From contig DASWNW010000038.1 in the NCBI GenBank assembly GCA_036399015.1, positions 122,934-186,933 on the forward strand: 64,000 nt of DNA. The letters are read 5' to 3'. The DNA comes from Thermoanaerobaculia bacterium (GTDB lineage: Bacteria; Acidobacteriota; Thermoanaerobaculia; Gp7-AA8). The translations under genes and the position numbers were made by a program. The first letter of the stretch is position 1. Each line of letters begins with the position of its first letter. This document shows, piece after piece, positions 32,274-50,351 of the stretch. Below the pieces are notes generated by a model. That model made no database searches. It saw only the letters and a list, made by a program, of their open reading frames with translations, and was not told the origin of the DNA.

Positions 32274-32300
32274 GAATGTCAGCGCGTCATGCTAGCAGAA

Positions 32301-32406
32301 GGGTTCCTCGGAGTTCCTCGGTTCCTCGGAGTTCCTCGGGGCCGCCGCCGAGCTCGCAGCACGCGCCGAGGAACTCCGAGGAACCCCGAGGAACTCCCGA
32401 GGAACC
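32301..32406. repeat. Family-A hairpin element (GTTCCTCGG units, 26-nt loop, CCGAGGAAC units).
   Basis: It lies in the divergent region between the HK start (32273) and the mazG ATG (32411). The right arm ends 4 bp before the mazG ATG. Confidence 0.8.
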
Positions 32407-32410
32407 TACA

Positions 32411-34144: not shown

Positions 34145-34269
34145 GCGTGGGATTCTAAGCCGGAGTGGCCGGTTGCTCGTTGCTGGTTGCTGGTTTCCTG
34201 CGAGGCAGTGCCTCCGGCGGAAGCCGTCGAGTCACGAGCAACCAGCAACGGCAATAGAATCCACCCACC

Positions 34270-35934
<1,665 letters not shown>

Positions 35935-36064
35935 TGGAGCGGTGCCCGCTCTCGGGCACCGGGGTCGGCGGCCGAAGCGGCCGCCGCTCCACTCCAGAAA
36001 GCACCACCGCCCGGGTAGGGACAACACCTCGGCAGTACACTCCTCCTCACAGGAGACCGAGACG

Positions 36065-38335
36065 ATGTCCAACTGGACGCGCAGGAAGTTCATCACCGTC
36101 ACTACCGTCGCCGGTGTCGCCGCCACGGAGATCGCGGCGCAGACGCCGCGGCGCTCCTCGAAGCCGGGAGCGACGCGCTACGCGGTCCATCCCTCGGTCG
36201 GCGTGGCGCGGCTCGGCAACAGCCCGGATGAGTTCTACCTCGAGCCGGAGTCGATCGGCGGCCTCCCGATCGAATGCACGCCGGACGGCACGCCGCGCAC
36301 GAAAGACGGCAAGCCGGTCTTCGTCCGGAAGTTCAAGGACGCCGAGGGGCGCATCAAGCGGCAGGGGGCGCAGTTCCGCGTCTACGCGTTCGACTCGAAC
36401 GATCCGTACGACCCCGGCCGCGAGATCACGCTCGACTCGCCCGAGGTGGAGTCGATCGAGTGGACGGTGCACCTCGCGAACAAGAAGGCCGTCTGGTACA
36501 ACAACGACCAGTTCATCGGGAACACCTACCTCGCCGGCGATCCGAACGCGGTGCAGGAGGATGCGAACTACTACCCGAACCCCAACACCCCACCCACGCC
36601 GACCGTCGACGCGAGCCTCCGCAACTGGTACATCCAGAAAGAGGATGACCGGCAGCGGATGCTGATCATCGACCCGGGACCGCGCAAGGTCAGCCGTCCG
36701 GGACAGAAGGCGGCGTTCTCGCGCGACACCATCCCGCCGGACTACACGAAAGGCGCGTTCCCCCCGATCGACCCGGAGAACCGGCGCGTGCCGTACGAGA
36801 TCGACACGCTCGGCGACATGATGATGTCGCGCTCCGGCCGGCTGGTCGTGCTGGGCGGCTTCGGCAGGGCCGGCGGGCAGGTGCCGATCGCGACCTACAC
36901 CGGCGCCGACACCTGGTACGACGACATCTCCGACGGCCCCGTCTGGTGCCGCCTCAAGCTGAAGGGGCAGGCAGAGCCGATCGTGCTGACCGCGTGGGCG
37001 CTGGTCGGCTCGCCGAAGTACGCGCCGGAGCTGCGCAGCATCTCGACTCTCGACGACATCATGTTCGACGTCGGCACCCGCTTCTACAACCTCGTCCCGG
37101 AGCTGTACGACGAGGGGCGGTACCGCGACGGCGGCTACAACCCGAACTACGAGGCCAACTACGCGCGCGACGTGGAGCCGATCCTCGAGCGCATCGGCGA
37201 CTACATCTGGGTCGCCAACGTGCAGTCGATGGTCGCGTTCATCTCCCCCCGCTTCAACCCGCGCGACAACTCCGAGGCGAACCGGAAGAACCGGGAAACG
37301 TTCTTCTCCTACTTCCGCGACTCCTCGAAGAACGAGCTCTCCGCGCCGCGCCAGCAGCTCTTCCACAACCGCGTCCCCATGGTCCCGCTCAACTCCGGGT
37401 CGAACTCGGTGACGAACGAGAACCAGGACAAGTACATGGGGCTCACGCGCACGCAGTACTTCCTCCTCGGGCAGTGGGCGAAGGGGAAGTTCACGACCGG
37501 GACGGTGAAGCCGTGGCCGAACCGCGTCCATCCGCTCGACCGCGCGTCCGCCGGCAACTGCGTCGGCCACCCGATGTCGCCCGGGATCGAGGTGACGTGG
37601 TCGGTGCGCAACCCGGTCATCTACAGCGAGCCGTATCGCATCAAGATCCACAAGGACGAGGCGTGGTATCGCGAGAAGGGCCTGAGCACGCTCGGCGACG
37701 AGACCGGCACGTATTTCGCGCGATTCCCGAAGCCGGGCGTCACGCCGCCGGCGTGGCTGGTGGTGCAGGACGGCTGCGAGCCGGGCGACCTCACCAAGCG
37801 CATGTCCGGACCCTGGATGTCGGACTTCTACCAGTGCTCGGTCGAGTATGTGAACTTCAGCGACCCGCCCGCGACGTCGCAGCCGAACACCACCGCCATC
37901 ACCGAGATCCCGACGCCGCCGACGTACTACACCTACTGGTGGCCGCCGCAGGCGCCGATGCACGTGCTCACCGGCGCGATGACGGCGCAGGAACAGGCGG
38001 ACGCCGGCGTCCCGGCCGGGTTCCAGGTCTATTACACGCGCGGCGCGAACAACATCGGGAACCTCGTCATCAGCTGGTCGTACATGGGCTTCATCGTCAA
38101 CGAGAACGAGTCGGACGAGGGGCGGATGTACCCCTACTTCGTCGAGAAGGAGCGGAACCACGACCGCTTCGTCGCGGCGGCGGTGGCGGTCGGAAGCCCG
38201 ATCAACCAGATGTCCGCGACCGGCAGTTACGCGCAGCCGACGAACTACTTCACGCTCGCCTGGTTCATGAAGGACGAGGCGGCCATCGCGGCGTGCGACG
38301 GCGTCCCGCCCGATGACCCGAGATGCAGGGACTGA
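36065..38335 (+). CDS. Candidate LodA/GoxA-family quinoprotein amino-acid oxidase (cysteine tryptophylquinone-dependent) with a Tat signal.
   Basis: The twin-arginine motif TRRKFITV is present. A Cys (GNCVGHP) and a Trp (PPAW) lie exactly 65 residues apart, as in LodA Cys516/Trp581. A LodB-like flavoprotein gene follows. The RBS is caggagac. Confidence 0.55.
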   Translation: MSNWTRRKFITVTTVAGVAATEIAAQTPRRSSKPGATRYAVHPSVGVARLGNSPDEFYLEPESIGGLPIECTPDGTPRTKDGKPVFVRKFKDAEGRIKRQGAQFRVYAFDSNDPYDPGREITLDSPEVESIEWTVHLANKKAVWYNNDQFIGNTYLAGDPNAVQEDANYYPNPNTPPTPTVDASLRNWYIQKEDDRQRMLIIDPGPRKVSRPGQKAAFSRDTIPPDYTKGAFPPIDPENRRVPYEIDTLGDMMMSRSGRLVVLGGFGRAGGQVPIATYTGADTWYDDISDGPVWCRLKLKGQAEPIVLTAWALVGSPKYAPELRSISTLDDIMFDVGTRFYNLVPELYDEGRYRDGGYNPNYEANYARDVEPILERIGDYIWVANVQSMVAFISPRFNPRDNSEANRKNRETFFSYFRDSSKNELSAPRQQLFHNRVPMVPLNSGSNSVTNENQDKYMGLTRTQYFLLGQWAKGKFTTGTVKPWPNRVHPLDRASAGNCVGHPMSPGIEVTWSVRNPVIYSEPYRIKIHKDEAWYREKGLSTLGDETGTYFARFPKPGVTPPAWLVVQDGCEPGDLTKRMSGPWMSDFYQCSVEYVNFSDPPATSQPNTTAITEIPTPPTYYTYWWPPQAPMHVLTGAMTAQEQADAGVPAGFQVYYTRGANNIGNLVISWSYMGFIVNENESDEGRMYPYFVEKERNHDRFVAAAVAVGSPINQMSATGSYAQPTNYFTLAWFMKDEAAIAACDGVPPDDPRCRD

Positions 38336-39441
38336 ATGAGTACGACGTCGCGGCCGCCGAGTACGACGTTGCCGTCGTGGGCGGCGGGCCGGCCGGGTCC
38401 GCCGCCGCGCTGACGCTGCTGCGCTACTCGAAGCTGCGGCCCGTCGTCGTCGAACGCTCGTCGTACGACGGCTGGCGCGTCGGCGAGACGCTCTCCCCCG
38501 GCGTCTTCCCGCTGCTGACCTACCTCGGCGCGGAGTCGCTGCTGCCCGGACAGGGGCAGCGCCGCGCGTACGCCACCAGCGCGGCGTGGGGCAGCGCCGA
38601 CGTCGTGTCGCGCGACTTCCTCTTCACCGGCGGCGGCGACGCGTGGCATCTCGATCGCGCCCGCTTCGACGCCTCGCTCGCGCGGCTCGTCTCCGAACGC
38701 GGCGGCACGCTGCTCTCCGGCACGGTCGTGGAGAAGGTCGAGCCGCGCTGGACGCTGATCACCAGCCGCGGTGCGATCTCCGCCCGCTTCGTCATCGACG
38801 CGACCGGCCGCCACGCGGCGTTCGCCCGGACGCAGGGGGCGCGCGCCGCATCCGACGATCACCTGACCGGCCTCGTGGGGTTGTTCGAGGGCGGCGACGG
38901 CGCGCAGACGGCGACGCTGGTCGAGGCGGTGGAGGACGGCTGGTGGTATTCGGCGCACCTGCCGGAGAACCGCACGGTCGTTGCCTTCATGACGGACGCC
39001 GACATCGTGCGCGCCGGCCGCCTGCACGAGGAGGACGCCTGGCTGGAGCGCCTCGGCGGCACGCGCGCGACGCGGCCGCGCACGGCGAACGCGCGGCTCG
39101 CGGAGGGGCCGATCGCCGCGCCGGCACACTCACAGATCCTCTACCCGGTGACCGGCGACGGCTGGATCAGCGCCGGCGATGCGGCGGCGGGATTCGATCC
39201 GCTGTCGTCGATGGGGATCGGCTACGCGATCGCCTCCGGCATCCAGGCGGCACGCGTCGCCGCCAGCTCGCTGTCCGGCGCAAGCGAGCACGCGCGTCTC
39301 TTCGCGCTCGACGTGCGGCGCCACTACGACGCCTACCTCGCGCGGCGGCAGGCGTACTACGAGATCGAGCAGCGCTGGCCGCGGTCGCCGTTCTGGGCGC
39401 GCAGGCACGGCGCGGGCGCGGTGTCATACTCCGCCGGATGA
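38323..39441 (+). CDS. LodB-like FAD-dependent flavoprotein, the putative CTQ-biogenesis partner.
   Basis: The N-terminal Rossmann motif is YDVAVVGGGPAGSAAALTL. It is 372 aa and overlaps the upstream gene by 13 bp. Confidence 0.55.
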   Translation: MQGLNEYDVAAAEYDVAVVGGGPAGSAAALTLLRYSKLRPVVVERSSYDGWRVGETLSPGVFPLLTYLGAESLLPGQGQRRAYATSAAWGSADVVSRDFLFTGGGDAWHLDRARFDASLARLVSERGGTLLSGTVVEKVEPRWTLITSRGAISARFVIDATGRHAAFARTQGARAASDDHLTGLVGLFEGGDGAQTATLVEAVEDGWWYSAHLPENRTVVAFMTDADIVRAGRLHEEDAWLERLGGTRATRPRTANARLAEGPIAAPAHSQILYPVTGDGWISAGDAAAGFDPLSSMGIGYAIASGIQAARVAASSLSGASEHARLFALDVRRHYDAYLARRQAYYEIEQRWPRSPFWARRHGAGAVSYSAG

Positions 39442-40208
39442 CGCAGCACGCCACCTCGTCTTCCTCGCCGCAGCCGGGATCGGAGCCGTCACACGCGGAG
39501 CGGGTGCGCACGCTGCTCGTGAGCGAGCGCGTCGGCACACTCGCCACACACTCCGCGCGGCACCCTGGCTGGCCGTTCGCCTCGGTCATGCCGTACGCGC
39601 TCGACGACGGCGCCTCGCCGCTCTTCCTCATCAGCGGCATGGCCATCCACACGCAGAACGCGCTCGCCGATCCGCGCGCGAGCCTCCTCGTCATGCAGAG
39701 CGGCGCCGACGCCGACCCGCTCGGCTCCCCTCGCGCCACGCTCCTCGGCCACGTGCGGCGCGTCGAGGCGCCGTCGGAGGCGTTGCGCAACGCCTATCTC
39801 GAGCGCCATCCGTCGGCCCGCTACTGGATCGACTTCTCCGACTTCGCGTTCTTCCGCCTCGAGGTCACCGACGTCTACTTCGTCGGCGGCTTCGGCGTCA
39901 TGGGCTGGGTGACGGCGGACGACTACCGCGCCGCGGAGGCCGACCCGCTCGTCGACAGCGCGGCGATGATCATCGAGCACATGAACGCCGATCACGCAGA
40001 CGCGCTGCGCGGCATCACCCGCCACTTCGGCGGCCTGGAGGCGGAGGAGGCGACGATGGTCTCCTGCGACCGCCTCGGCTTCGTCGTGCGCGCGCGGACG
40101 GCGGAGGGGATGAAGGGGGCGCGCATCCAGTTCCCGGAGCCGGTCCGCTCGCGCGAGGACGCGCGCCGGGTGCTCGTGGCCATGACGCGCGCCTCGCGGG
40201 GGGAGTGA
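39438..40208 (+). CDS. HugZ/HutZ-like protein (pyridoxamine-5'-phosphate-oxidase-like split barrel plus DUF2470).
   Basis: The domain pattern was recognised by eye. It has an ATGA overlap with the lodB-like gene. Confidence 0.5.
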   Translation: MTQHATSSSSPQPGSEPSHAERVRTLLVSERVGTLATHSARHPGWPFASVMPYALDDGASPLFLISGMAIHTQNALADPRASLLVMQSGADADPLGSPRATLLGHVRRVEAPSEALRNAYLERHPSARYWIDFSDFAFFRLEVTDVYFVGGFGVMGWVTADDYRAAEADPLVDSAAMIIEHMNADHADALRGITRHFGGLEAEEATMVSCDRLGFVVRARTAEGMKGARIQFPEPVRSREDARRVLVAMTRASRGE

Positions 40209-40226
40209 CGGCGGGCCGGAGCCCGC
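40209..40226. terminator. GC hairpin GCGGGC-CGGA-GCCCGC between convergent genes.
   Basis: The inverted repeat lies 1 bp after the HugZ-like stop and 16 bp from the stop of the giant minus-strand gene. There is no U-tract. Confidence 0.3.
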
Positions 40227-40241
40227 CGCCACTGCATCTCA

Positions 40242-43200
40242 TCAGCTCAACCGCATCCGGGTGACCGCGGCCGCCGCGAGCAGGCCCGCCAGGATCATCA
40301 GGCCCCACTCCGACGCCGTCGGGACCGCCGCGACGTGCGCCGAGGCGACGACCACCGACGCGCTGGAGGAGTTGTTGGACGTCACCGCCTCCGACTCGTC
40401 GCTGTCGACGGTGGCGACGTTCATCATCGTGCCCACGCCCATGGCGCGGCCGGTCATCGTGATCGTGATCGAAGCGCCGTTCAGCATCGTGCCGAGCGCG
40501 CACGTCACCGTCGTGGTTCCGCTGCACGTGCCCAGCGTCGACGTGACGCCGGTCAACTGGAAGTTCGCCGGCAGCGGGTCGTTGAGCACCACGTTCGTCG
40601 CGGTGTCGGGGCCGTTGTTGGTGACGACCAGCGTGAAGTTGAACGTGTCGCCGACCAGCATGCTGGTGAGGGAGGCCGACTTCACGATGCCCAGGTCGAC
40701 CACCGGTCCGCCGGCGTCGCCGCCGTTGCCGTCGTCGTCGGTGTTGTCGTCGACGTCGGGGTCGGGCTCGGTCGCAGTGACCGTGGCCACGTTGTCGAAC
40801 GCGCCGGCGGCGTCGATCGTCGCCGTGACCGTTATGGTGGTGCTCGCACCGACGGCAAGGCTGGCGATGGTGCACGGCAGCGCGGCGCAGCCGCTGCCGC
40901 TCACGCCGGTGATGGTGAGGTTCGTCGGCGTGTCGGTCACCTGGATGTTCGTCGCCGGGGACGGTCCGGCGTTCGCGACCACGAGCGTGTAAGTGAGCTC
41001 CTGGCCGAGGCCGAACGGTCCGGGGGTGACGAGGGTCTTGACCACCGAGACGTCGGCCGAGGGGCCGGTGAAGCCGCCGTTGTCGTCCTCGTCGTCGTTG
41101 TCCTCGCCGTCGGGGTCGGGCTCGGTGGCGGTGGCCGCGGCCACGTTGTCGAACGCGCCGGCGGCGTCGATGGTCGCCGTCACGGTGATGGTGGTGCTCG
41201 CTCCCATGGCGAGGCTGGCGATGGTGCACGGCAGCGCGGCGCAGCCGCTGCCGCTCACGCCGGTGATGGTGAGGTTCGTCGGCGTGTCGGTCACCTGGAT
41301 GTTCGTCGCCGCCGACGGTCCGGCGTTCGCGACCACGAGCGTGTACTGGATCGATTGACCGATGCTGAAGGGGCCGACGGTGATCAGCGTCTTCACCAGC
41401 GAAACGTCCGCCGAGGGGCCGGCGATGTCGCCGTCGTCATCGGTGTTGTCGTCCACGTCGGGGTCAGGCTCGGTCGCCGTCGCGGTCGCGGTGTTGCTGA
41501 ACGCGCCGGCGGCGTTGACTGTCGCCGTCACGTTGATGGTGGCGTTCGCGCCCATGGCGATGCTGGGGATGGTGCACGGCAGCGCCGCACAGCCGCTGCC
41601 GCTCACGCCGGTGATGGTCATGTTCGCCGGCGTGTCTGTCACGGTGACGCTCGTGGCGGTTGAGGGGCCGGCGTTCGCCACGATGAGGGTGTACTGGATC
41701 GCCTGACCGATGCTGAACGGGCCGGCGGTGATCAGTGTCTTCACCAGTGAGACATCCGCCGAGGGGCCGGCGATGTCGCCGTCGTCATCGGTGTTGTCGT
41801 CCACGTCGGGGTCAGGCTCGTTCGCCGTCGCGGTCGCGGTGTTGCTGAACGCGCCGGCGGCGTTGACGGTCGCCGTCACGTTGACGGTGGCGCTCGCGCC
41901 CATGGCGATGCTGGGGATGGTGCACGGCAGCGCGGCGCAGCCGCTGCCGCTGACGGCGGTGACGGTCATGTTCGACGGCGTGTCCGTCACCTCGACCGAC
42001 GTGGCCGTGGAGGGGCCGGCGTTCGCCACGACGAGCGTGTACTGGATCGACTGACCGACGCTGAAGGGGCCGGCGGTGATCAGCGTCTTCACCAGCGAAA
42101 CGTCCGCGGACGGACCAGCGATGTCGCCGTCGTCATCGGTGTTGTCGTCCACGTCGGGGTCAGGCTCGGTCGCCGTCGCGGTCGCGGTGTTGCTGAACGC
42201 GCCGGCGGCGTTGAGCGTCGCCGTGACGTTGATGGTCGCGTTCGCGCCCATGGCGATGCTGGGGATGGTGCACGGCAGCGCGGCACAGCCGCTGCCGCTG
42301 ACGCTGGTGATGGTCATGTTCGACGGCGTGTCCGTCACCTCGACCTTGGTGGCGACGGAGGGGCCGGCGTTGGCCACTACGAGCGTGTACTGGATCGACT
42401 GGCCGGGGATGAAGGGGCCGGCAGTGATCAGCGTCTTCACCAGCGAGACGTCGGCCGAGGGGCCGGCGATGTCGCCGTCGTCATCGGTGTTGTCGTCCAC
42501 GTCGGGGTCAGGCTCGTCCGCGGTCGCGGTGGCGGTGTTGCTGAACGCGCCAGCGGCGTTGACCGTCGCCGTGACGTTGATGGTGGCGCTCGCGCCCATG
42601 GCGATGCTGGGGATGGTGCACGGCAGCGCGGCGCAGCCGCTGCCGCTGACGGCGGTGATGGTCATGTTCGCCGGCACGTCGGTCACGGCGACGCTCGTGG
42701 CCGTGGAGGGGCCGGCGTTCGCCATGACGAGGGTGTACTGGATCGCCTGACCGATGCTGAACGGGCCGGCGGTGATCAGTGTCTTCACCAGTGAGACATC
42801 CGCCGAGGGGCCGGCGATGTCGCCGTCATCATCGGTGTTGTCGTCCACGTCAGGGTCAGGCTCGTCGGCTGTCGCGGTGGCGGTGTTGCTGAACGCGCCG
42901 GCGGCGTTGACGGTCGCCGTCACGTTGATGGTGGCGCTCGCTCCCATGGCGATGCTGGGGATGGTGCAGGGCAGCGCGGCGCAGCCGCTGCCGCTCACGC
43001 TGGTGATGGTCATGTTCGCCGGCACGTCCGTCACCTCGACCGACGTGGCCGTGGAGGGGCCGGCGTTCGACACGACGAGCGTGTACTGAATCGACTGACC
43101 GACGGTGAAGGGGGCGGCGGTGATGAGCGTCTTCACCAGCGAGACGTCGGCCGAGGGGCCGGCGATGCCGCCGTCGTCATCGGTGTTGTCGTCCACGTCG

Positions 43201-46200
43201 GGGTCAGGCTCGTCGGCGGTCGCGGTGGCGGTGTTGCTGAACGCGCCGGCGGCGTCGATCGTTGCCGTCACGTTGATGGTGGTGCTTGCTCCCATGGCAA
43301 GGCTGGGGATGGTGCACGGCAGCGCGGCACAGCCGCTGCCGCTGACGCTCGTGATGGTGAGGTTCGTGTCGGTGTCGGTCACCTCGACGTTCGTCGCGGT
43401 GGACAGGCCGGCGTTCGAGACGACGATCGTGAAGTTCACCGTGTCGCCGGTGGTGAACGGTCCGGCGGTGGTCAGCGTCTTCACGACCGAGACGTCGGCG
43501 AACGGACCGGCGATGCCGGTGTCGTCGTCGGTGTTGTTGTCAACGTCGGGATCCGGCTCGTCGGCAGTGGCCGTGGCGGTGTTGCCGAAAACGCCGTCCG
43601 CGTCGATGGTGCCGGTGACGGTGATGGTCGTATCCGCGCCGGCGGCGATGCTCGCGATGGTGCAAGGCAAGGCGGCGCAGCCGCTGCCGCTGACGGTGGC
43701 GATCGTGAAGTTCGACGGGGTGTCCGTCACCTCCACGTTCGTCGCGGACGACAGCCCGTCATTCGCCACCAGGATCGAGAACGTCACTTCGTCGCCGACG
43801 CTGTACGGGCCGGCCGTGGTGAGCGTCTTCACGACCGAGACGTCCGCAAACGGGCCGGCGATGCCGGTGTCGTCGTCGGTGTTGTCGTCCGGGTCGGGAT
43901 CCGGCTCGTCCGCCGTGGCCGTCGCGGAGTTCTCGAAGAGACCGTCCGCGCCGATGGTGCCGGTGACGGTGACGGTCGTATTCGCATTGACGGCGAGCGT
44001 TGGGATCGTGCAGGGCAAGGCCGTGCAGCCGCTGCCGGCGACGCTGGTGATGGTGAAGTTGGCCGGCGTATCCGTCACGTCGATCGAAGTGGCCGGCGAC
44101 GGACCGGCGTTCGCGACCAGGATCGAGAAGCTGACCGTGTCGCCGACGCTGTGCGGCCCGGCGGTGGTGAGCGTCTTCACGACCGAGACGTCGGCCGAGG
44201 GTCCGGCGATGTCGCCGTCGTCGTCGGTGTTGTTGCCGGGCGTGGGGTCGGGCTGGTCGCCGTCGGCCGTGGCCTCGTTTTCAAACGCGCCGGCCGCGTC
44301 GATGGTGGCGGTGACGGTGATGGTCGTGTCGGCGTCGTCCGACAGCGCCGCGATCGTGCAGGGCAGTGCGGCGCAGCCGCTGCCACTCACGCCGGTAATG
44401 GTCAGGTTCGTGTCGACGTCCGTCACCTGGATGTTGGTGGCCGTGGACGGGCCGTCGTTCCTGACCACGATGTTGAAAGTCACCGTGTCGCCCACGGTGT
44501 AGGGGCCGGCGGTGGTCAGGGTCTTCGTCAGCGAGACGTCAGCCGAGACCGCGGTGTCCCCGTCATCGTCGGTGTTGTTGCCGGGCGTCGGGTCCGGCTG
44601 GTCGCCGTCGGCCGTGGCCTCGTTCTCGAACGGTCCGGCCGCGTCGATGGTCGCGGTGACGCTGATGGTGGTCTCGGTGTCGTCCGAGAGCGCCGCGATC
44701 GTGCAGGGCAACGCCGCGCAGCCGCTGCCGCTCACGCCGGTGATGGTCAGGTTCGTGTCGACGTCCGTCACCTGGATGTTCGTGGCCGTGGACGGGCCGT
44801 CGTTCCGGACCACGATATCGAAGGTCACCGTGTCGCCCGCTTCGAAGGGACCGGTGGTGGTGAGGGTCTTGGTGAGGGACACGTCGGCCGAGTCGGCGGT
44901 GCCGCCGTCGTCGTCGGTGTTGTTGCCAGGGGTCGGGTCCGGCTGGTCGCCGTCGGCCGTGGCCTCGTTTTCAAACGCACCGGCCGCGTCGATGGTGGCG
45001 GTGACGCTGATCGTGGTCTCGGTGTCGTCCGACAGCGCCGCGATCGTGCAGGGCAGTGCCGCGCAGCCGCTGCCGCTGACGCCGGTGATGGTGAGGTTCG
45101 TGTCGACGTCGGTCACCTGGATGTTGGTGGCCGTGGACGGGCCGTCGTTCCTGACCACGATGTTGAAAGTCACCGTGTCGCCCGCCTCGAAGGGACCGGT
45201 GGTGGTGAGCGTCTTGGTGAGGGACACGTCGGCCGAGTCGGCGGTGTCGCCGTCGTCGTCGGTGTTGTTGCCGGGGGTCGGGTCCGGCTGGTCGCCGTCG
45301 GCGGTGGCTTCGTTCGAGAAGGCTCCCGCCGCGTCGATCGTCGCCGTGACGCTGATGGTGGTCTCGGTGTCGTCCGACAGCGCCGCGATCGTGCAGGGCA
45401 GTGCGGCGCAGCCGCTGCCACTCACGCCGGTGATGGTCAGGTTCGTATCGACGTCCGTCACCTGGATGTTGGTGGCCGTGGACGGGCCGTCGTTCCTGAC
45501 CACGATGTCGAAGGTCACCGTGTCGCCCACGGTGTAGGGGCCGGCGGTGGTCAGGGTCTTCGTCAGCGAGACGTCAGCCGAGACCGCGGTGTCCCCGTCG
45601 TCGTCGGTGTTGTTGCCGGGCGTGGGGTCCGGCTGGTCGCCGTCGGCCGTGGCTTCATTCGAGAAGGCTCCGGCCGCGTCGATCGTCGCGGTGACGGTGA
45701 TGGTCGTCTCGGCGTCGTCTGCCAGCGCCGCGATCGTGCAGGGCAGTGCCGCGCAGCCGCTGCCGCTCACGCCGGTGATGGTCAGGTTCGTGTCGACGTC
45801 GGTCACCTGAACGTTCGTGGCCGTGGACGGGCCGTCGTTTCTGACCACGATGTTGAAAGTCACCGTGTCGCCCGCCTCGAAGGGACCGGTGGTGGTGAGC
45901 GTCTTGGTGAGGGACACGTCGGCCGAGTCGGCGGTGTCGCCGTCGTCGTCGGTGTTGTTGCCGGGCGTCGGGTCCGGCTGGTCGCCGTCGGCCGTGGCTT
46001 CATTCGAGAAGGCTCCGGCCGCGTCGATGGTGGCGGTGACGGTGATGGTGGTCTCGGCGTCGTCCGACAGCGCCGCGATCGTGCAGGGCAGTGCCGCGCA
46101 GCCGCTGCCACTCACGCCGGTAATGGTCAGGTTCGTGTCGACGTCCGTCACCTGGATGTTGGTGGCCGTGGACGGGCCGTCGTTCCTGACCACGATGTTG

Positions 46201-49200
46201 AAAGTCACCGTGTCGCCCGCCTCGAAGGGGCCGGTGGTGGTGAGCGTCTTGGTGAGGGACACGTCAGCCGAGTCGGCGGTGTCGCCGTCGTCGTCGGTGT
46301 TGTTGCCGGGCGTGGGGTCGGGCTGGTCGCCGTCGGCCGTGGCCTCGTTTTCAAACGCCCCGGCCGCGTCGATGGTCGCGGTGACGCTGATGGTGGTCTC
46401 GGCGTCGTCCGACAGCGCCGCGATCGTGCAGGGCAGAGCCGCGCAGCCGCTGCCGCTGACGCCGGTGATGGTCAGGTTCGTGTCGACGTCGGTGACCTGA
46501 ACGTTGGTGGCCGTGGACGGGCCGTCGTTCCTGACCACGATGTTGAAAGTCACCGTGTCGCCCGCCTCGAAGGGACCGGTGGTGGTCAGGGTCTTCGTCA
46601 GCGAGACATCGGCCGAGGCGTCGGCGGTGTTGCCGTCGCTGCCGGTGTTGTTGCCGGGCGTCGGGTCCGGCTGGTCGCCGTCGGCGGTGGCCTCGTTTTC
46701 AAACGCGCCGGCCGCGTCGATGGTCGCGGTGACGCTGATGGTGGTCTCGGCGTCGTCCGACAGCGCCGCGATCGTGCAGGGCAGCGCCGCGCAGCCGCTG
46801 CCGCTTACGCCGGTGATGGTGAGGTTCGTGTCGACGTCCGTCACCTGGATGTTCGTGGCCGTCGACGGGCCGTCGTTTCTGACCACGATGTTGAAAGTCA
46901 CCGTGTCGCCGACGGTGTAGGGACCGGCGGTGGTCAGGGTCTTCGTCAGCGACACGTCGGCCGAGGAGGTGCTGAAGACGGTCTCGCTGTCGCTGTTCGA
47001 GGTGACGCCGTCCGCCGTGGCGGTGGCGGTGTTGGTGACGAAGCCGACCGTGACGTCGGCGGCGGTGGCGAGGTACGCGCCGGTGCAGGTCACCGCCTCG
47101 CCGGTCTCGAGGAAGTTGTCGGAGTCGCCGGCGGTGGTCACTGCCGCGCAGGAGACCGACGCGATCTTGTCGTCGGTGACGGCGACCGGTCCCTCGAGCG
47201 GCGCGACGCCGCTGTTGCTGACCTGGTAGGTGTAGTCGATCTGGTCGCCGGCGCTCGTGAAGGTGTCGGTGGAGGACTTGACGAGCGTGAGCTCGGTGGT
47301 GGCGTAGGTCGCGCTGGAAGGACCCGACGTGACGGGAGTGGCGCCGAACATCGCCTCCGCCGTCGCGGTGTTGACCTGCTCCTCGAGGGTCACCAGCACC
47401 GGGCCGGTGACGCAGGTGACGATGTGGTCGTCGTCGTTCGCGTCGGCGACCGGCAGGGTGACGCCGGAGAACGACGCGTTGCAGGTGGCGACGCTCAGCT
47501 TGTCGTCCTCGATCTCGACCGAGTCGAGCGGCACGTCGCCCGTGTTCTCCACCGTGAAGCGGTAGTGGACGGAGTCGCCGGCGGAGACGGCGGCGAAAGA
47601 GGACCAGGGGCCGGTGGCGCTGGTGCCGACCTGTTTGAGGAGGGCGATGCCGGGGTTCGGCGGATTGACCTGCAGCGAGTCGCTGGCCGTGTTCCCGTTC
47701 ACCGTGGCCGCGTTGACGACGTGCGAGACGTTGCCGCTGGTGTTGTTGTACGTGCCGGCGGTGGGCGCCGTCACGTCGACCGTGACGGTGCAGGTGCCGC
47801 CCGCGGCGATGGTGCCGCCGGAGAAGGAGATCGAGCCGGAGCCGGCCGACGGCGAGAACGTCGGAGCGCCGCAGCCGCTGATCGACGCGTTCGGAACGGG
47901 CGCCACCTTCATCGCGCCGGGCGCCACCGGGAAGGTGTCGGAGAAGGCGACGCCGGAGAGGGCGTTGTCCTGGTTCGGATTGGAGAGGGTGAAGGTGAGC
48001 GTCGACGTGCCGCCGGGGAGGACCGGCGACGGCGCGAACTGCTTGGCGATGACGGGCGGGAGGACGGCCGTGAGGGTGTCGGTGGCGACGCTGTCGCTGG
48101 CGGTGCCGCTCTCGGTCGTGACGAGGAAGCCGCTGACGTTCCCGTGCGGACCGGCGGTGGTGGCGGTCACGTTCACCGTGACCGTGCAGGAGCCGTTCGC
48201 CGGGATGGTCGCGCCGGTGGTCTGACCGAAATTGAGCGTCGTCGCACCGGCCGTGGGGGCCCACGACGGCGAGCCGCCGCAGGTCGTGCTCGCGGCCGGC
48301 GTGGCCGCGACCTGGACGCCCGTGGGAAGGGAGTCGGTGAACTTGGCGCCGGTGAGCTGCACGCTGTTCGAGTTCGTGAGGGTGAACGTGAGCGTCGACG
48401 TGCCGTTCACCGCGATCGGGTCGGGAGAGAACGACTTGCTGAGGATCGGGTCGATGGCCGTCGCGCAGGCGGTGAAGAGCACGTTGTCGATGCTGAGGTC
48501 GGCGCCGGGGGCGGTGTTGTTGGCGGCGTACCCGTAGATCCGGAAGAACGTCGGCCCCGAGGGATTGAGGCCGGTGGTGAAGGTGTGGCTGAAGTTCACC
48601 CACGTGGTGGCGGCCGGCAGCGCGTTACTGCCGGCGTCGAACGCCTGCGTGCCCGGCGGCGTCGCCGACGTGCTGGAGAAGACCGCGATACCGCGCGCGC
48701 CGTTGTTGGTGCGGAACGCGTCGAAGCTCATCGACACCGAGATCAGCCCGGTCGTGTCGATTGCGAACTCGAAGTAGTCGTTGTTGATCGTGTCGAGCGT
48801 CGCGCTGGTGGCGATGCCGCCGTTCGACCGCCACGAGATCGTGCCGGCGGGCGAGCCGGTGTTGTCGGCGGTACCGGTCTGCGAGGTGATCCCTGCGCCC
48901 GGCGACGCGCTGGCGGTGACGTTCGCGACGGTCGGCGCGGGCGAGGCGGTGTTGAAGCCGGAGGCGAAGAGCCACTGCGCCAGCGTCGTGCCGCAGATGC
49001 CGGCTCCCGGCGTGTCGGTATTCACGGTGAGCGAGGCGCTGGCGTCGTCGCCGGTGTCGATCGTCCCGACGAAGAGGTTCTCGGTCGTGTTGTTGAACGT
49101 GCCGGTCGCCGTGGGAGTGACGTTGACGGTGAAGACGCAGTTGCTGTTGGCGGCGAGCGTGCCGTTCGAGAAGCTGATGGTGCCGGACCCGGCGGTCGCG

Positions 49201-50351
49201 GAGACGGTCGGCGTGCCGCAGCCGCTCGTCGAGACGGCGGGAGTGCTCGCCACCTCGAGGTTGGCGGGGAGGTTGTCGACGAAGTTGTAGCCGCCGAGCG
49301 TGCCGCCGTTCGGGTTCGTGAGCGTGAAGGTGAGCACCGCGACGCCGTCCACCTGCGCCGGGTTGGGGTTGAAGCTCTTGCTGATCGTCGCGCTGGCGGG
49401 ATCGATGATGTGGGCGATGCGGGCGCCGGTGCCGAAGTCGGCGTTGTAGTGGTAGCTGCTGCCCGAGAAGTCGTAGAGGAGGGTGGTCAGCGCCTCGCTG
49501 GTGCCGCCGCCGGCGACGATCTTGATGGTGTAGGTGGTGACGACGTCCTGGCCGCCGGACTTGAAGTCGCCGCCGACGCATTCGCGGTACGTCGGGCTGT
49601 TCGGATCGTTGTCCCAGCCGCAGGCGTCGGCGTAGAGCTGGTCGTGCAGGGCGGGAGCGGGACCGCCGACGTTCGGCGAGTCGTTGGCCGAGTAGGAGGT
49701 CTCGACGTCGAGGATCTGGAAGATGGTGTTCGGGAAGTTGATGAACGCCTCGAACTGGTTGTAGCCCTGCGTCGCGGTGCCGCCGAGGAGCTGGATGGTG
49801 TAGGTGTTGCCGACCACGAGCGACATCGCGCCGCCCGGTGCGACCGACTCGAGGTTCAGCGGGTCGAGCCCGTACTTGACGTCGGTCACAGCGTTACGGC
49901 TCTGGGAGATGAGGTGCTCGACGTAGACCTCGCGCGGCGTGGTCGTGGAGACGTTCCCCGAGGCGTCGGTGGCGGTGATGTGGTAGCGGCGGGTGGTGTC
50001 GAACGCCGCCGGATCCTTGTCGATCTCCACCTCGAAATAGGCGTCGGCGCAGCCGCCGGCGGGGATCGAGGCGATCGTGACGGCGTCGAGGGATCCGGGC
50101 CGGAGATCGACGAAGGAGTTGGGCGTGTCCCACTCGAACTCGACGAGGACGTTGGTCGTCGCCACGGTGCTGCAGACGCGCGCACCGATGGGAAAGCGGT
50201 TCGGGCCGCTCGCAACGTCATTGCTGTCGAGGCCGATGACGTTCCAGGTGATCGGCTCGATCGTCAGGCTCGCCGACGCCGCGAAAAGCGGCACGGTGCC
50301 GAGCAGGACAATCAATGAAAAGAGACGCCGAGCCACGCTGCGTGCAGGCAT
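40242..50351 (-). CDS. Giant (3369 aa) secreted cell-surface protein. About 20 tandem DUF11-like (conserved repeat domain) repeats fill the C-terminal two thirds. The C-terminal tail is IPTL-CTERM-like (VPTASEWGLMILAGLLAAAAVTRMRLS).
   Basis: A signal peptide (MPARSVARRLFSLIVLLGTVPLFAASA) is present. The repeat unit is about 110 aa (...VSLTKTLTT.GP...GDTVTFNIVV.NDGPSTATN..VTD...NLTIT.VSGSGCAALPCTIA...ITVTATIDAAGAF.N.ATA..D.PDP...NNTDDDG..), with near-identical DNA copies about 335 bp long. The C-terminal motif is followed by a TM helix and a basic tail. Confidence 0.85.
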   Translation of the reverse strand: MPARSVARRLFSLIVLLGTVPLFAASASLTIEPITWNVIGLDSNDVASGPNRFPIGARVCSTVATTNVLVEFEWDTPNSFVDLRPGSLDAVTIASIPAGGCADAYFEVEIDKDPAAFDTTRRYHITATDASGNVSTTTPREVYVEHLISQSRNAVTDVKYGLDPLNLESVAPGGAMSLVVGNTYTIQLLGGTATQGYNQFEAFINFPNTIFQILDVETSYSANDSPNVGGPAPALHDQLYADACGWDNDPNSPTYRECVGGDFKSGGQDVVTTYTIKIVAGGGTSEALTTLLYDFSGSSYHYNADFGTGARIAHIIDPASATISKSFNPNPAQVDGVAVLTFTLTNPNGGTLGGYNFVDNLPANLEVASTPAVSTSGCGTPTVSATAGSGTISFSNGTLAANSNCVFTVNVTPTATGTFNNTTENLFVGTIDTGDDASASLTVNTDTPGAGICGTTLAQWLFASGFNTASPAPTVANVTASASPGAGITSQTGTADNTGSPAGTISWRSNGGIATSATLDTINNDYFEFAIDTTGLISVSMSFDAFRTNNGARGIAVFSSTSATPPGTQAFDAGSNALPAATTWVNFSHTFTTGLNPSGPTFFRIYGYAANNTAPGADLSIDNVLFTACATAIDPILSKSFSPDPIAVNGTSTLTFTLTNSNSVQLTGAKFTDSLPTGVQVAATPAASTTCGGSPSWAPTAGATTLNFGQTTGATIPANGSCTVTVNVTATTAGPHGNVSGFLVTTESGTASDSVATDTLTAVLPPVIAKQFAPSPVLPGGTSTLTFTLSNPNQDNALSGVAFSDTFPVAPGAMKVAPVPNASISGCGAPTFSPSAGSGSISFSGGTIAAGGTCTVTVDVTAPTAGTYNNTSGNVSHVVNAATVNGNTASDSLQVNPPNPGIALLKQVGTSATGPWSSFAAVSAGDSVHYRFTVENTGDVPLDSVEIEDDKLSVATCNASFSGVTLPVADANDDDHIVTCVTGPVLVTLEEQVNTATAEAMFGATPVTSGPSSATYATTELTLVKSSTDTFTSAGDQIDYTYQVSNSGVAPLEGPVAVTDDKIASVSCAAVTTAGDSDNFLETGEAVTCTGAYLATAADVTVGFVTNTATATADGVTSNSDSETVFSTSSADVSLTKTLTTAGPYTVGDTVTFNIVVRNDGPSTATNIQVTDVDTNLTITGVSGSGCAALPCTIAALSDDAETTISVTATIDAAGAFENEATADGDQPDPTPGNNTGSDGNTADASADVSLTKTLTTTGPFEAGDTVTFNIVVRNDGPSTATNVQVTDVDTNLTITGVSGSGCAALPCTIAALSDDAETTISVTATIDAAGAFENEATADGDQPDPTPGNNTDDDGDTADSADVSLTKTLTTTGPFEAGDTVTFNIVVRNDGPSTATNIQVTDVDTNLTITGVSGSGCAALPCTIAALSDDAETTITVTATIDAAGAFSNEATADGDQPDPTPGNNTDDDGDTADSADVSLTKTLTTTGPFEAGDTVTFNIVVRNDGPSTATNVQVTDVDTNLTITGVSGSGCAALPCTIAALADDAETTITVTATIDAAGAFSNEATADGDQPDPTPGNNTDDDGDTAVSADVSLTKTLTTAGPYTVGDTVTFDIVVRNDGPSTATNIQVTDVDTNLTITGVSGSGCAALPCTIAALSDDTETTISVTATIDAAGAFSNEATADGDQPDPTPGNNTDDDGDTADSADVSLTKTLTTTGPFEAGDTVTFNIVVRNDGPSTATNIQVTDVDTNLTITGVSGSGCAALPCTIAALSDDTETTISVTATIDAAGAFENEATADGDQPDPTPGNNTDDDGGTADSADVSLTKTLTTTGPFEAGDTVTFDIVVRNDGPSTATNIQVTDVDTNLTITGVSGSGCAALPCTIAALSDDTETTISVTATIDAAGPFENEATADGDQPDPTPGNNTDDDGDTAVSADVSLTKTLTTAGPYTVGDTVTFNIVVRNDGPSTATNIQVTDVDTNLTITGVSGSGCAALPCTIAALSDDADTTITVTATIDAAGAFENEATADGDQPDPTPGNNTDDDGDIAGPSADVSVVKTLTTAGPHSVGDTVSFSILVANAGPSPATSIDVTDTPANFTITSVAGSGCTALPCTIPTLAVNANTTVTVTGTIGADGLFENSATATADEPDPDPDDNTDDDTGIAGPFADVSVVKTLTTAGPYSVGDEVTFSILVANDGLSSATNVEVTDTPSNFTIATVSGSGCAALPCTIASIAAGADTTITVTGTIDADGVFGNTATATADEPDPDVDNNTDDDTGIAGPFADVSVVKTLTTAGPFTTGDTVNFTIVVSNAGLSTATNVEVTDTDTNLTITSVSGSGCAALPCTIPSLAMGASTTINVTATIDAAGAFSNTATATADEPDPDVDDNTDDDGGIAGPSADVSLVKTLITAAPFTVGQSIQYTLVVSNAGPSTATSVEVTDVPANMTITSVSGSGCAALPCTIPSIAMGASATINVTATVNAAGAFSNTATATADEPDPDVDDNTDDDGDIAGPSADVSLVKTLITAGPFSIGQAIQYTLVMANAGPSTATSVAVTDVPANMTITAVSGSGCAALPCTIPSIAMGASATINVTATVNAAGAFSNTATATADEPDPDVDDNTDDDGDIAGPSADVSLVKTLITAGPFIPGQSIQYTLVVANAGPSVATKVEVTDTPSNMTITSVSGSGCAALPCTIPSIAMGANATINVTATLNAAGAFSNTATATATEPDPDVDDNTDDDGDIAGPSADVSLVKTLITAGPFSVGQSIQYTLVVANAGPSTATSVEVTDTPSNMTVTAVSGSGCAALPCTIPSIAMGASATVNVTATVNAAGAFSNTATATANEPDPDVDDNTDDDGDIAGPSADVSLVKTLITAGPFSIGQAIQYTLIVANAGPSTATSVTVTDTPANMTITGVSGSGCAALPCTIPSIAMGANATINVTATVNAAGAFSNTATATATEPDPDVDDNTDDDGDIAGPSADVSLVKTLITVGPFSIGQSIQYTLVVANAGPSAATNIQVTDTPTNLTITGVSGSGCAALPCTIASLAMGASTTITVTATIDAAGAFDNVAAATATEPDPDGEDNDDEDDNGGFTGPSADVSVVKTLVTPGPFGLGQELTYTLVVANAGPSPATNIQVTDTPTNLTITGVSGSGCAALPCTIASLAVGASTTITVTATIDAAGAFDNVATVTATEPDPDVDDNTDDDGNGGDAGGPVVDLGIVKSASLTSMLVGDTFNFTLVVTNNGPDTATNVVLNDPLPANFQLTGVTSTLGTCSGTTTVTCALGTMLNGASITITMTGRAMGVGTMMNVATVDSDESEAVTSNNSSSASVVVASAHVAAVPTASEWGLMILAGLLAAAAVTRMRLS
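40330..46950. repeat. About 20 tandem coding repeats of about 312-348 bp inside the giant gene. Many are more than 90% identical at the DNA level.
   Basis: The periodicity is visible in the plus-strand ORF track. For example, 41362-41706 and 41710-42054 are near-identical, and three repeats sit within 44512-45537. Confidence 0.8.

What the first reader, a model, noticed from the sequence alone, without database searches (positions are those of the whole stretch)
40242..50351. 10-kb gene for a DUF11 tandem-repeat surface protein with an IPTL-CTERM-like sorting signal and near-identical DNA repeats
This is a single 3369-aa ORF. It has a signal peptide, divergent Ig-like/DUF11 modules in the first third, and then about 20 tandem 110-aa repeats. 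Many of the repeats are more than 90% identical at the nucleotide level. That identity points to recent expansion, contraction or concerted evolution. It also marks a likely assembly-collapse hotspot. The extreme C-terminus reads VPTASEWGLMILAGLLAAAAVTRMRLS. That is a motif plus a TM helix plus a basic tail. It fits the IPTL-CTERM class of exosortase/archaeosortase-type sorting signals. It is not an LPXTG or a classic PEP-CTERM signal. No cognate sortase is present in the window. Proteins like this are phase-variable adhesins or S-layer-like components.
Basis: partly seen in the sequence, partly recalled or inferred. Interest (0 to 1): 0.6.

Follow-up and report, generated by a model that had tools for sequence, protein, structure and literature searches.

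The report
Giant IPTL-CTERM-anchored fibrillar adhesin gene
This 10-kb gene from a soil Thermoanaerobaculia (Acidobacteriota) genome encodes an ordinary though very large cell-surface "fibrillar adhesin": a conserved binding head on a long stalk of 24 repeated Ig-like domains, ending in a recognised IPTL-CTERM sorting tail.

Summary
Window 40242..50351 (minus strand) is one 3369-aa ORF. It has a signal peptide, 19 DUF11 domains and a C-terminal tail that passes the curated cut-offs of both IPTL-CTERM models (TIGR04174 and PF18203).

- The array is 18 tandem units of 115-119 aa plus one divergent unit.
- It falls into two homogenised blocks that are 87-95% identical at the DNA level. No pair reaches 95%, and dS within blocks is 0.23-0.29, so the repeats are similar but not near-identical or very recent.
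- The first third is not just divergent DUF11. It holds a strongly conserved two-beta-sandwich head with no Pfam model, a CBM-like jelly-roll, three DUF7933 domains and two DUF7507 domains.

All three stalk families are published intramolecular-isopeptide ("CLIPPER"-type) families. A candidate Lys-Asp-Asn triad is present in all 24 stalk domains.

No exosortase was found among the candidate ORFs scanned in the window or in the flanks of 132 homologous loci. Whether the genome encodes XrtH could not be tested. No slipped-strand tract was seen in the promoter or 5' coding region; other phase-variation mechanisms were not examined.

Two other metagenome assemblies of the same locus break inside the array, at or within a few bases of its longest exact repeats.

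Verdict: a new member of a known kind, of low to moderate interest.

The parts
40242..50351 (-). Complete CDS, 3369 aa, 334 kDa, pI 4.05, including the stop codon
50271..50351 (-). Putative Sec signal peptide (about aa 1-27, MPARSVARRLFSLIVLLGTVPLFAASA)
   Evidence: By inspection. The N-terminus aligns with that of the homologues. No predictor was run.
49392..50270 (-). Conserved N-terminal head (about aa 28-320): two beta-sandwich subdomains and four conserved Cys. No Pfam or NCBIfam model.
   Evidence: No Pfam hit at E<=1. 50-75% identity to homologues from several phyla. AF2 pLDDT 88. Only generic Ig-like fold matches. 1048 50%-identity clusters, N-terminal in nearly all of the best 150.
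49017..49391 (-). DUF7933 domain 1 (about aa 321-445), candidate triad K325/D359/N421
   Evidence: Pfam DUF7933 with 3 stretches. K325, D359 and N421 are invariant in 26 homologues. Spacing +34/+96 against the published +35/+95 (PMC12617251).
48456..49016 (-). CBM-like beta-jelly-roll domain (about aa 446-632). No Pfam model.
47667..48455 (-). DUF7933 domains 2 and 3 (about aa 633-895), candidate triads K639/D673/N738 and K770/D805/N870
46962..47666 (-). Two DUF7507 (CLIPPER_2)-type domains (about aa 896-1130). The first also resembles DUF7617. Candidate triads K906/D949-950/N994 and K1025/D1060-1061/N1107.
44196..46961 (-). Repeat block A: DUF11 units 1-8 (aa 1131-2052), 87-95% nt and 89-97% aa identity
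43152..44195 (-). DUF11 units 9-11, intermediate in sequence (70-85% nt identity to the blocks)
41412..43151 (-). Repeat block B: DUF11 units 12-16, 88-94% nt identity
40701..41411 (-). DUF11 units 17-18 (86% nt identity to each other)
40353..40700 (-). Divergent 19th DUF11 domain (aa 3218-3333), 28-35% aa identity to the tandem units
40245..40325 (-). IPTL-CTERM sorting domain (aa 3343-3369): VPTASEWG motif, 14-residue hydrophobic helix, TRMRLS basic end
   Evidence: TIGR04174 22.4/30.9 bits against cut-off 20.5; PF18203 22.6 against 20.8
45841..45965 (.). Longest exact intragenic repeat (125 nt, second copy at 45151). The JGI contig Ga0334963_000013 ends here, at 45846.
41685..41783 (.). 99-nt exact repeat (second copy at 42729). 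The ENA contig k141_300192 ends exactly at its last base, 41783.

Best explanation
The gene encodes a cell-surface fibrillar adhesin of a Thermoanaerobaculia (Acidobacteriota) bacterium.

Shown:
- The domain order is signal peptide, conserved two-beta-sandwich head, DUF7933, CBM-like jelly-roll, two DUF7933, two DUF7507, 19 DUF11, then an IPTL-CTERM tail.

Inferred mechanism:
- The protein is exported by Sec and is first held in the inner membrane by the C-terminal helix.
- An exosortase cleaves at or near the VPTASEWG motif and transfers the protein to an unknown envelope acceptor. NCBIfam assigns this tail class to XrtH.
- The C-terminus therefore stays at the cell, while the head and the CBM-like module are held out on a stalk of 24 Ig-like domains. 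At roughly 4 nm per domain that is about 100 nm.
- Each stalk domain belongs to a family shown or predicted to form a Lys-Asn intramolecular isopeptide bond catalysed by Asp. Each carries an invariant candidate triad. The stalk is therefore probably covalently cross-linked and resistant to proteases and force.
- The CBM-like fold and the conserved head suggest a glycan or other conserved environmental ligand.
- The number of stalk repeats changes by unequal recombination between units. The units are homogenised within a lineage, which tunes stalk length.
For: Architecture:
- Pfam finds DUF11 in 19 stretches (E=0), DUF7507, and DUF7933 in 3 stretches. IPTL-CTERM is above threshold.
- The head and the aa 446-632 domain fold confidently: pLDDT 88 and 89.7.

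The family uses envelope-appropriate anchors:
- 521 loci in GTDB species genomes encode the head.
- 38 of 68 complete orthologues have IPTL-like tails by regular expression. Of ten scanned tails from Acidobacteriota and Proteobacteria, five scored 20.5-40.2 bits on TIGR04174, at or above its cut-off.
- Three complete orthologues, from Anaerolineae/Aggregatilineales (Chloroflexota), end in an LPXTG motif by regular expression; the Ilumatobacteraceae (Actinobacteria) tail also contains LPATG but lies further from the end. The one LPXTG tail scanned scored below the TIGR01167 cut-off.
- Swapping of C-terminal anchors with a constant N-terminal head is what a surface-displayed protein predicts.

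Isopeptide stalk:
- DUF11, DUF7507 and DUF7933 are listed as intramolecular-isopeptide families. A DUF11 crystal structure (9IFR) has the bond K715-N806 with D748 (PMC12617251).
- In this protein K7, D42 and N89 of the unit are invariant in 19 of 19 units. D42 and N89 are invariant in 148 of 148 units from 26 loci.
- 24 of the protein's 33 lysines are exactly the first-strand Lys of the 24 stalk domains.

Repeat dynamics:
- Orthologues carry 0-16 units of this type and are 1363-4027 aa long.
- Every window unit is closest to a unit of its own gene.

Definition of fibrillar adhesins (long protein, adhesive region, repetitive stalk, surface anchor, N-terminal annotation gap distal to the anchor): PMC9210967.
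Against: - No function was tested and no ligand is known.
- No exosortase gene was found among candidate ORFs in the window or in the flanks of 132 homologous loci. The rest of the genome could not be searched, so processing of the tail is unproven.
- How an exosortase substrate would cross the outer membrane is not known for any IPTL-CTERM protein.
- The isopeptide triad was assigned by spacing and invariance, not by a structure of this repeat. The K7 column was part of the pattern used to cut out the units. 9IFR was not retrieved by a profile search of PDB sequences.
- Units 1-3 and part of unit 4 are supported only by the window's own assembly.
Confidence: 0.72

Rival explanations
1. The protein is a structural envelope component, such as an S-layer, sheath or matrix scaffold, rather than a ligand-binding adhesin. 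The IPTL-CTERM tail would tether a lattice-forming or cell-cell aggregating protein.
For: The only IPTL-CTERM protein with experimental data found in the searched library is the S-layer protein mela_00855 of Methylomirabilis lanthanidiphila (PMC8671808). DUF11 proteins of Methanothermobacter stabilise cell aggregates, and DUF11 occurs in proposed archaeal S-layer porins (PMC12617251).
Against: mela_00855 is 312 aa with no tandem stalk. This protein is 3369 aa with a distinct conserved head and a CBM-like module at the end far from the anchor. Stalk length varies from 1363 to 4027 aa among orthologues, which does not fit a lattice with fixed geometry. Aggregation through the head would still be adhesion.
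Confidence: 0.12
2. The tail is only a C-terminal membrane anchor that happens to resemble IPTL-CTERM. It is not cleaved by any exosortase, and the protein stays tethered to the inner membrane or is released by another protease.
For: The scores are only just above the cut-offs on the full protein (22.4 against 20.5; 22.6 against 20.8). No exosortase was found in the window or near any orthologue. Several orthologue tails fall below the TIGR04174 cut-off at 12.9-15.7 bits.
Against: The motif, helix and basic end recur at the extreme C-terminus of 38 of 68 complete orthologues by regular expression, and five of ten scanned tails score 20.5-40.2 bits. On the isolated tail the score is 30.9 bits. 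The tail also matches the XrtH-linked model NF033207 at 29-32 bits, which is below that model's cut-off. Exosortase genes are usually unlinked to their many substrates (established knowledge: Haft et al. 2006 and 2012, not re-read here). A 334-kDa stalk tethered to the inner membrane of a diderm cell would be trapped in the periplasm.
Confidence: 0.12
3. The copy number or order of the array in the window is an assembly artefact, through collapse, expansion or chimeric joining of repeat units. The real gene would have a different number of units.
For: The JGI contig ends at 45846, five bases into the longest exact repeat (125 nt), and its only 7 mismatches lie in its last 165 nt. The ENA contig ends at 41783, the last base of a 99-nt exact repeat. 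No independent contig covering the N-terminal side was found. All joins between units are in frame, so an intact ORF does not exclude a misjoin.
Against: Window 24270-45683 is identical to the JGI contig, which therefore covers units 19 to 5 and part of unit 4. Window 24270-41783 is identical to the ENA contig. No exact repeat of 127 nt or longer exists in the gene, so a k=141 de Bruijn assembly could in principle traverse it without ambiguity. Complete orthologues, some on multi-megabase contigs or closed chromosomes, have similar arrays of up to 16 such units and up to 4027 aa.
Confidence: 0.2

Closest known systems
Fibrillar adhesins with CLIPPER (DUF11) / CLIPPER_2 (DUF7507) isopeptide stalks (Protein Sci 2025, PMC12617251; Monzon and Bateman, PMC9210967)
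   Same: A long protein with a signal peptide, an N-terminal non-stalk region, tandem DUF11/DUF7507/DUF7933 Ig-like domains with a conserved Lys-Asp-Asn triad, and a C-terminal sorting signal.
   Different: The sorting signals named in the passages of that survey that were read are Por_secre_tail, CHU_C, LPXTG and archaeal archaeosortase tags. Here the anchor is IPTL-CTERM. The head has no Pfam model. No biochemical data exist for this protein.
IPTL-CTERM / exosortase H (XrtH) sorting system (NCBIfam TIGR04174, and TIGR04177 from memory; Pfam PF18203)
   Same: The motif [IV]PT[LA]SEWG, a hydrophobic helix and a basic end sit at the extreme C-terminus, above both curated cut-offs.
   Different: The first motif residue is V and the fourth is A. 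The organism is an acidobacterium. The cognate exosortase was not found in the 64-kb window and could not be searched for in the rest of the genome.
Methylomirabilis lanthanidiphila S-layer protein mela_00855 (PMC8671808)
   Same: A surface protein of a diderm bacterium with a signal peptide and a predicted IPTL-CTERM domain. It is the only IPTL-CTERM protein with localisation data found in the library.
   Different: It is 312 aa, forms a lattice, and has no DUF11 stalk, head or CBM-like module.
Gram-positive MSCRAMM / SdrD / Cna-type adhesins (LPXTG, sortase A)
   Same: The same logic: an N-terminal binding region, a stalk of repeated B-type Ig domains cross-linked by isopeptide bonds, variable repeat number, and C-terminal covalent sorting. 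Orthologues of this family in Chloroflexota do carry LPXTG motifs, as does the Ilumatobacteraceae (Actinobacteria) tail.
   Different: A different sorting enzyme class, a different envelope (diderm), and no sequence similarity in the head.

Membership tests
IPTL-CTERM sorting domain proteins (TIGR04174 / PF18203) | Score at or above the curated cut-off of the family model | tested here: met
   TIGR04174 22.4 bits on the whole protein and 30.9 bits on the last 40 aa, against 20.5. PF18203 22.6 against 20.8.
IPTL-CTERM sorting domain proteins (TIGR04174 / PF18203) | Tripartite layout at the extreme C-terminus: signature motif, transmembrane helix, basic cluster | tested here: met
   VPTASEWG, then LMILAGLLAAAAV, then TRMRLS followed by the stop. 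The match covers model positions 1-25 of 27 at aa 3343-3367.
IPTL-CTERM sorting domain proteins (TIGR04174 / PF18203) | N-terminal signal peptide, so the protein crosses the inner membrane | tested here: inconclusive
   The n-h-c layout is seen by inspection and the N-terminus aligns with that of the homologues. No signal-peptide predictor was available.
IPTL-CTERM sorting domain proteins (TIGR04174 / PF18203) | Cognate exosortase (XrtH) encoded in the same genome | not testable with these tools
   None found among about 40 candidate ORFs of the window. None among the TM-rich ORFs sampled in 132 homologous loci.
IPTL-CTERM sorting domain proteins (TIGR04174 / PF18203) | Several proteins with the same tail in one genome | not testable with these tools
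   A regular-expression scan of all six frames found only this one in the 64-kb window.
Fibrillar adhesins (Monzon and Bateman definition) | Very long protein with a tandem stalk of repeated domains | tested here: met
   3369 aa with 24 Ig-like stalk domains: DUF7933 x3, DUF7507 x2, DUF11 x19.
Fibrillar adhesins (Monzon and Bateman definition) | Cell-surface anchor at the end opposite the adhesive region | tested here: met
   IPTL-CTERM at the C-terminus; head and CBM-like domain at the N-terminus.
Fibrillar adhesins (Monzon and Bateman definition) | An adhesive (ligand-binding) domain | tested here: inconclusive
CLIPPER / intramolecular isopeptide domains (DUF11, DUF7507, DUF7933) | Membership of the Pfam families | tested here: met
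   DUF11 1154 bits, DUF7507 543 bits, DUF7933 217 bits, all far above the gathering scores.
CLIPPER / intramolecular isopeptide domains (DUF11, DUF7507, DUF7933) | Conserved Lys (first strand), catalytic Asp and Asn triad with the published spacing | tested here: met
   K7/D42/N89 are invariant in 19 of 19 units. D42 and N89 are invariant in 148 of 148 units of 26 loci. DUF7933-1 has K325/D359/N421 at +34/+96 against the published +35/+95. The assignment of N89 rather than N105 is by spacing and by homology to the NTATA motif of DUF7507.
CLIPPER / intramolecular isopeptide domains (DUF11, DUF7507, DUF7933) | The isopeptide bond actually forms (side chains in bonding geometry; mass loss of 17 Da) | not tested
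9IFR was not retrieved by a profile search of PDB sequences.

The most novel reading that the evidence does not exclude
The about 300-aa N-terminal head is an undescribed, unusually conserved binding module with no Pfam or NCBIfam model. It is 50-75% identical across Acidobacteriota, Pseudomonadota, Chloroflexota, Nitrospirota, Actinomycetota and Bacteroidota, and forms about 1000 clusters at 50% identity. In nearly all of the best 150 matches it sits at the tip of an isopeptide-stalk protein. It has moved horizontally between phyla while its C-terminal anchor was exchanged to suit each envelope: IPTL-CTERM, LPXTG, a fused sortase, a C25 peptidase, or an unknown 'PVxLxxFxxE' end. It would then recognise one widespread conserved ligand in soil and sediment, such as a common polysaccharide or mineral surface. 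It would also place the IPTL-CTERM/XrtH system as a major surface-display route in Acidobacteriota.
Probability: 0.3. Interest if true: 0.45.

Novelty: new member of a known kind. Interest (0 to 1): 0.3.

Why it matters
- For annotation, the gene would be named 'DUF11 / IPTL-CTERM sorting domain-containing protein' by standard pipelines, so nothing categorically new is claimed.
- It gives a clean example of a CLIPPER-type isopeptide stalk joined to an exosortase-type (IPTL-CTERM) anchor in Acidobacteriota, a dominant but poorly studied soil phylum.
- It shows why such genes are nearly always 'partial' in metagenome catalogues. Assemblies break at or within a few bases of the longest exact intragenic repeats.
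- It points to a conserved head domain that has no family model and is an obvious target for a new Pfam entry and for ligand screening.

Tried and rejected
- Exact look-ups of the giant protein, LodA and the upstream PhnB-like protein in the contig index found nothing on record. Only hutU worked.
- A metagenome scan for an independent contig covering the N-terminal side found nothing above about 69% identity. Units 1-4 could therefore not be cross-validated.
- The search for an exosortase covered Pfam/NCBIfam scans of window ORFs and a hydrophobicity screen of all ORFs in 134 loci, followed by Pfam on 16 candidates. Those were MscS, DctM, FecCD, MlaE, UbiA, MFS, AI-2E, VTT, EamA, M50 and similar. 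No exosortase was found.
- No XrtH seed sequence could be obtained. tblastn of the tail against plasmids found nothing. Literature searches for XrtH gave only one relevant preprint, which mentions 'exosortase H' but holds no usable sequence.
- PDB sequence searches with one repeat unit and with a 19-unit profile gave no significant hit, and 9IFR was not retrieved.
- The AFDB fold library was not available.
- The idea that the head is an enzyme was rejected. It is all-beta, with only Ig-like or adhesin-like two-domain matches.
- The plus-strand 2055-aa ORF was rejected as an antisense shadow.
- Synteny: the orthologues in other species do not share this gene's neighbours, apart from one HugZ-like gene (L015) and one tricorn-like protease gene (L035). 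Context therefore gives no functional clue.
- The promoter/terminator scan found no sigma-70-like promoter. The 'terminators' it found are all on the plus (antisense) strand and recur inside the repeat units, so they are repeat-sequence artefacts.
Full report
**1. Observation**

- Window 40242..50351 on the minus strand is a single ORF of 3369 codons with an ATG start. A GAGGA sequence lies 8-12 nt upstream.
- The window is 64-73% G+C. The ORF has GC3 of 0.95, as do the neighbouring genes.
- The long plus-strand ORF 44151..50318 is the antisense shadow expected in a high-GC gene. The minus-strand frame gives overwhelming Pfam matches: DUF11 at 1154 bits in 19 stretches, DUF7507 at 543 bits, and DUF7933 at 217 bits in 3 stretches. 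NCBIfam TIGR01451 matches at 471 bits in 23 stretches.
- Tandem Repeats Finder reports one array of period 348 nt with 18.0 copies at 40728..46966.

**2. Repeat anatomy**

- Cutting at the motif ADVS[LV][TV]K gives 18 head-to-tail units of 115-119 aa (aa 1131-3217, window 40701..46961). A 19th, divergent DUF11 follows at aa 3218-3333 and is 28-35% identical to the others.
- The array is not uniform:
  - Units 1-8 form block A, at 87-95% nt and 89-97% aa identity.
  - Units 12-16 form block B, at 88-94% nt identity.
  - Units 9-11 and 17-18 are intermediate.
  - The two blocks are about 70-76% identical at the nt level.
- Only 24 of 153 unit pairs are at least 90% identical and none reaches 95%.
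- By the Nei-Gojobori method, dS within blocks is 0.29 (A) and 0.23 (B), with dN/dS of 0.13 and 0.25. The copies have therefore diverged appreciably at silent sites under purifying selection. They are not products of a very recent burst.
- All 18 units nevertheless find their closest relative inside the same gene. Mean best identity is 0.91, against 0.70 to the sampled units of 15 other loci. This is the signature of lineage-specific amplification or homogenisation.
- Orthologues have 0-16 units of this type and total lengths of 1363-4027 aa, with a median of 2343. Stalk length clearly varies in evolution.

**3. Assembly**

- hutU and its neighbours are annotated in NCBI as a Thermoanaerobaculia MAG (HEY0157127-HEY0157131).
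- Two other assemblies carry the same locus:
  - JGI 3300034145 contig Ga0334963_000013 (244,790 bp) matches window 24270-45846.
  - ENA ERZ27253124 contig k141_300192 (60,902 bp) matches window 24270-41783 at 100%.
- Both contigs end inside the array.
- The gene's longest exact internal repeats are 125 nt (45151/45841), 123, 100 and 99 nt (41685/42729). There is none of 127 nt or longer.
- The JGI contig stops five bases into the 125-nt repeat, and its only 7 mismatches lie in its last 165 nt. The ENA contig stops on the last base of the 99-nt repeat.
Units 19 to 5 are corroborated. Units 1-3 and part of unit 4 rest on the window's own assembly.
- A k=141 assembler could traverse the array without ambiguity, but copy number in block A needs long reads to confirm.
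- Nearly all of the 741 database homologues of the N-terminus are labelled 'partial'. This is the same problem seen at scale.

**4. The tail**

- VPTASEWGLMILAGLLAAAAVTRMRLS scores above the curated cut-offs of TIGR04174 (22.4 bits in the whole protein, 30.9 on the last 40 aa, cut-off 20.5) and of PF18203 (22.6 against 20.8).
- It also gives 29-32 bits on NF033207 'midcut-by-XrtH'. That is below the model's cut-off of 45, but this model shares the XrtH recognition segment.
- PEP-CTERM models score far lower.
- Among 68 complete orthologues, 38 end in an IPTL-like tail by regular expression. Ten tails were scanned against TIGR04174. Five scored 20.5-40.2 bits, four scored 12.9-15.7 bits, and the Tahibacter tail gave no hit. 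The tail is therefore conserved, not a chance match.

**5. Sortase**

- About 40 candidate ORFs of the window were scanned against Pfam and/or NCBIfam. They are histidine kinases, MazG, Nth, HutU, LodA/LodB, a HugZ-like protein, a PhnB-like protein, AraC- and LysR-type regulators, a tricorn-like protease, MFS transporters and similar (JGI Pfam table). There is no exosortase among them and no second IPTL-tailed ORF.
- A hydrophobicity screen of every ORF in 134 loci, followed by Pfam on 16 candidates, also found none.
- Established knowledge of PEP-CTERM systems is that the enzyme is usually unlinked to most of its substrates, so this absence is uninformative.
- I could not search the rest of the genome.

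**6. The first third of the protein**

- After the signal peptide, aa 28-320 has no Pfam hit even at E<=1. It is nevertheless 50-75% identical to homologues from Thermoanaerobaculia, Lysobacterales, Burkholderiales/Casimicrobiaceae, Nitrospirota, Anaerolineae, Ilumatobacteraceae and Bacteroidota.
- It has dozens of invariant residues, including four cysteines and motifs such as GLDSN, TATQGYNQFE and YDFSGSSYHYN.
- An exhaustive phmmer search of 1.84 billion representatives finds 1048 clusters at E<=0.001 and 562 at E<=1e-30. The match lies at about residues 25-340 of large proteins in nearly all of the best 150.
- These two modules are interleaved with three DUF7933 domains and followed by two DUF7507-type domains.

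**7. The stalk**

- A 2025 survey (PMC12617251) shows that DUF11 ('CLIPPER'), DUF7507 ('CLIPPER_2'), DUF7933 and DUF7617 are intramolecular isopeptide-bond families. A DUF11 crystal structure (9IFR) has the bond K715-N806 with catalytic D748.
- In the window protein, every one of the 24 stalk domains has a Lys in the first strand, an Asp 34-44 residues later, and an Asn in an N-x-A/S-T-type strand 80-100 residues after the Lys (K325/D359/N421).
- In the tandem units, K7, D42 and N89 are invariant in 19 of 19. D42 and N89 are invariant in 148 of 148 units from 26 loci. K7 was part of the pattern used to extract the units, so its invariance there is by construction.
- The protein has only 33 lysines in 3369 residues, and 24 of them are exactly these positions.
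- I infer a covalently cross-linked stalk.

**8. Interpretation**

- The layout matches the published definition of a fibrillar adhesin (PMC9210967). The elements are a signal peptide, conserved non-stalk modules far from the anchor, a long variable stalk, and a C-terminal sorting signal.
- The same head-plus-stalk family carries different C-terminal ends in different lineages:
  - IPTL-CTERM-type tails in Acidobacteriota and Proteobacteria.
  - An LPXTG motif in Chloroflexota (Anaerolineae/Aggregatilineales) orthologues and in the Ilumatobacteraceae (Actinobacteria) tail.
  - A fused sortase domain in some Anaerolineae.
  - A C25 peptidase domain in a Nitrospiraceae orthologue.
- This is strong comparative evidence that the C-terminus is the cell-proximal, envelope-specific end and that the head is the functional tip.
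- The S-layer reading rests only on the 312-aa Methylomirabilis precedent (PMC8671808) and fits the architecture poorly.
- Phase variation is not supported by anything seen. There are no slipped-strand tracts at the 5' end.

**9. Novelty and score**

- Each element is a known kind: the DUF11/CLIPPER stalk, the IPTL-CTERM tail and the repeat-number variation. Standard pipelines would annotate the gene correctly. I rate it a new member of a known kind, with interest 0.3.
- The most interesting residue is the conserved head, which has no family model and is spread across phyla with swapped anchors. The combination of an isopeptide stalk with an exosortase-type anchor in Acidobacteriota is a smaller point of interest.

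Noticed in passing
L046 9980-22063 (Anaerolinea MAG); also L067, L070, L113/L114: Chloroflexota orthologues of the same head-plus-stalk family end in an LPxTG-like motif (ALPNTG / IPATG). In L046 this is directly followed, in the same ORF, by a Sortase domain (PF04203, 82 bits); the others end in the same TLxTC-type sequence. This is a substrate fused to its own sortase.
   Followed up: partly
L038 9992-15988 (Nitrospiraceae MAG): This orthologue replaces the C-terminal sorting tail with a Peptidase_C25 (gingipain-family) domain (232 bits).
   Followed up: partly
L013, L027, L029 (Tahibacter and Rhodanobacteraceae): These orthologues end in '...TPVxLxxFxxE/D' with no hydrophobic helix. The L013 tail, the only one scanned, gave no hit to any NCBIfam CTERM model. 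This may be an undescribed C-terminal signal.
   Followed up: partly
window 40242-50351 (protein level): Extreme lysine depletion: 33 Lys in 3369 aa, 24 of them at the predicted isopeptide position. The protein has 310 Asp, a pI of 4.05, and a conserved CxxxxC pair in 18 of the 19 DUF11 units.
   Followed up: partly
window 35942-40208 (+): A CTQ-dependent lysine 6-oxidase LodA (NF038172, 744 bits), its maturase LodB and a HugZ/CREG-like protein lie immediately 3' of the giant gene and converge on it. There is no evident functional link.
   Followed up: no
window 44151-50318 (+): A 2055-aa open frame antisense to the giant gene. It is a high-GC shadow ORF and not a gene.
   Followed up: yes
window about 22000-24700: A lower-GC (0.64), ORF-poor stretch with small genes: DUF6438, a HicB-like fragment according to the JGI calls, and two small unannotated minus-strand ORFs. 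It may be a small mobile or toxin-antitoxin island. tRNA-Pro(CGG) lies at 18568-18644.
   Followed up: no
window 53569-56745 (+): A 1058-aa tricorn-like protease (PD40 beta-propeller, Tricorn C1 and PDZ domains, S41 peptidase) lies 3 kb beyond the 5' end of the giant gene and is transcribed away from it.
   Followed up: no
window 14959-17385 (+): An 808-aa ORF with carboxyltransferase subdomains C/D and A/B (PxpB/PxpC-like) and an unusually GC-rich first codon position (0.82). The long N-terminal extension may reflect a wrong start or a fusion.
   Followed up: no
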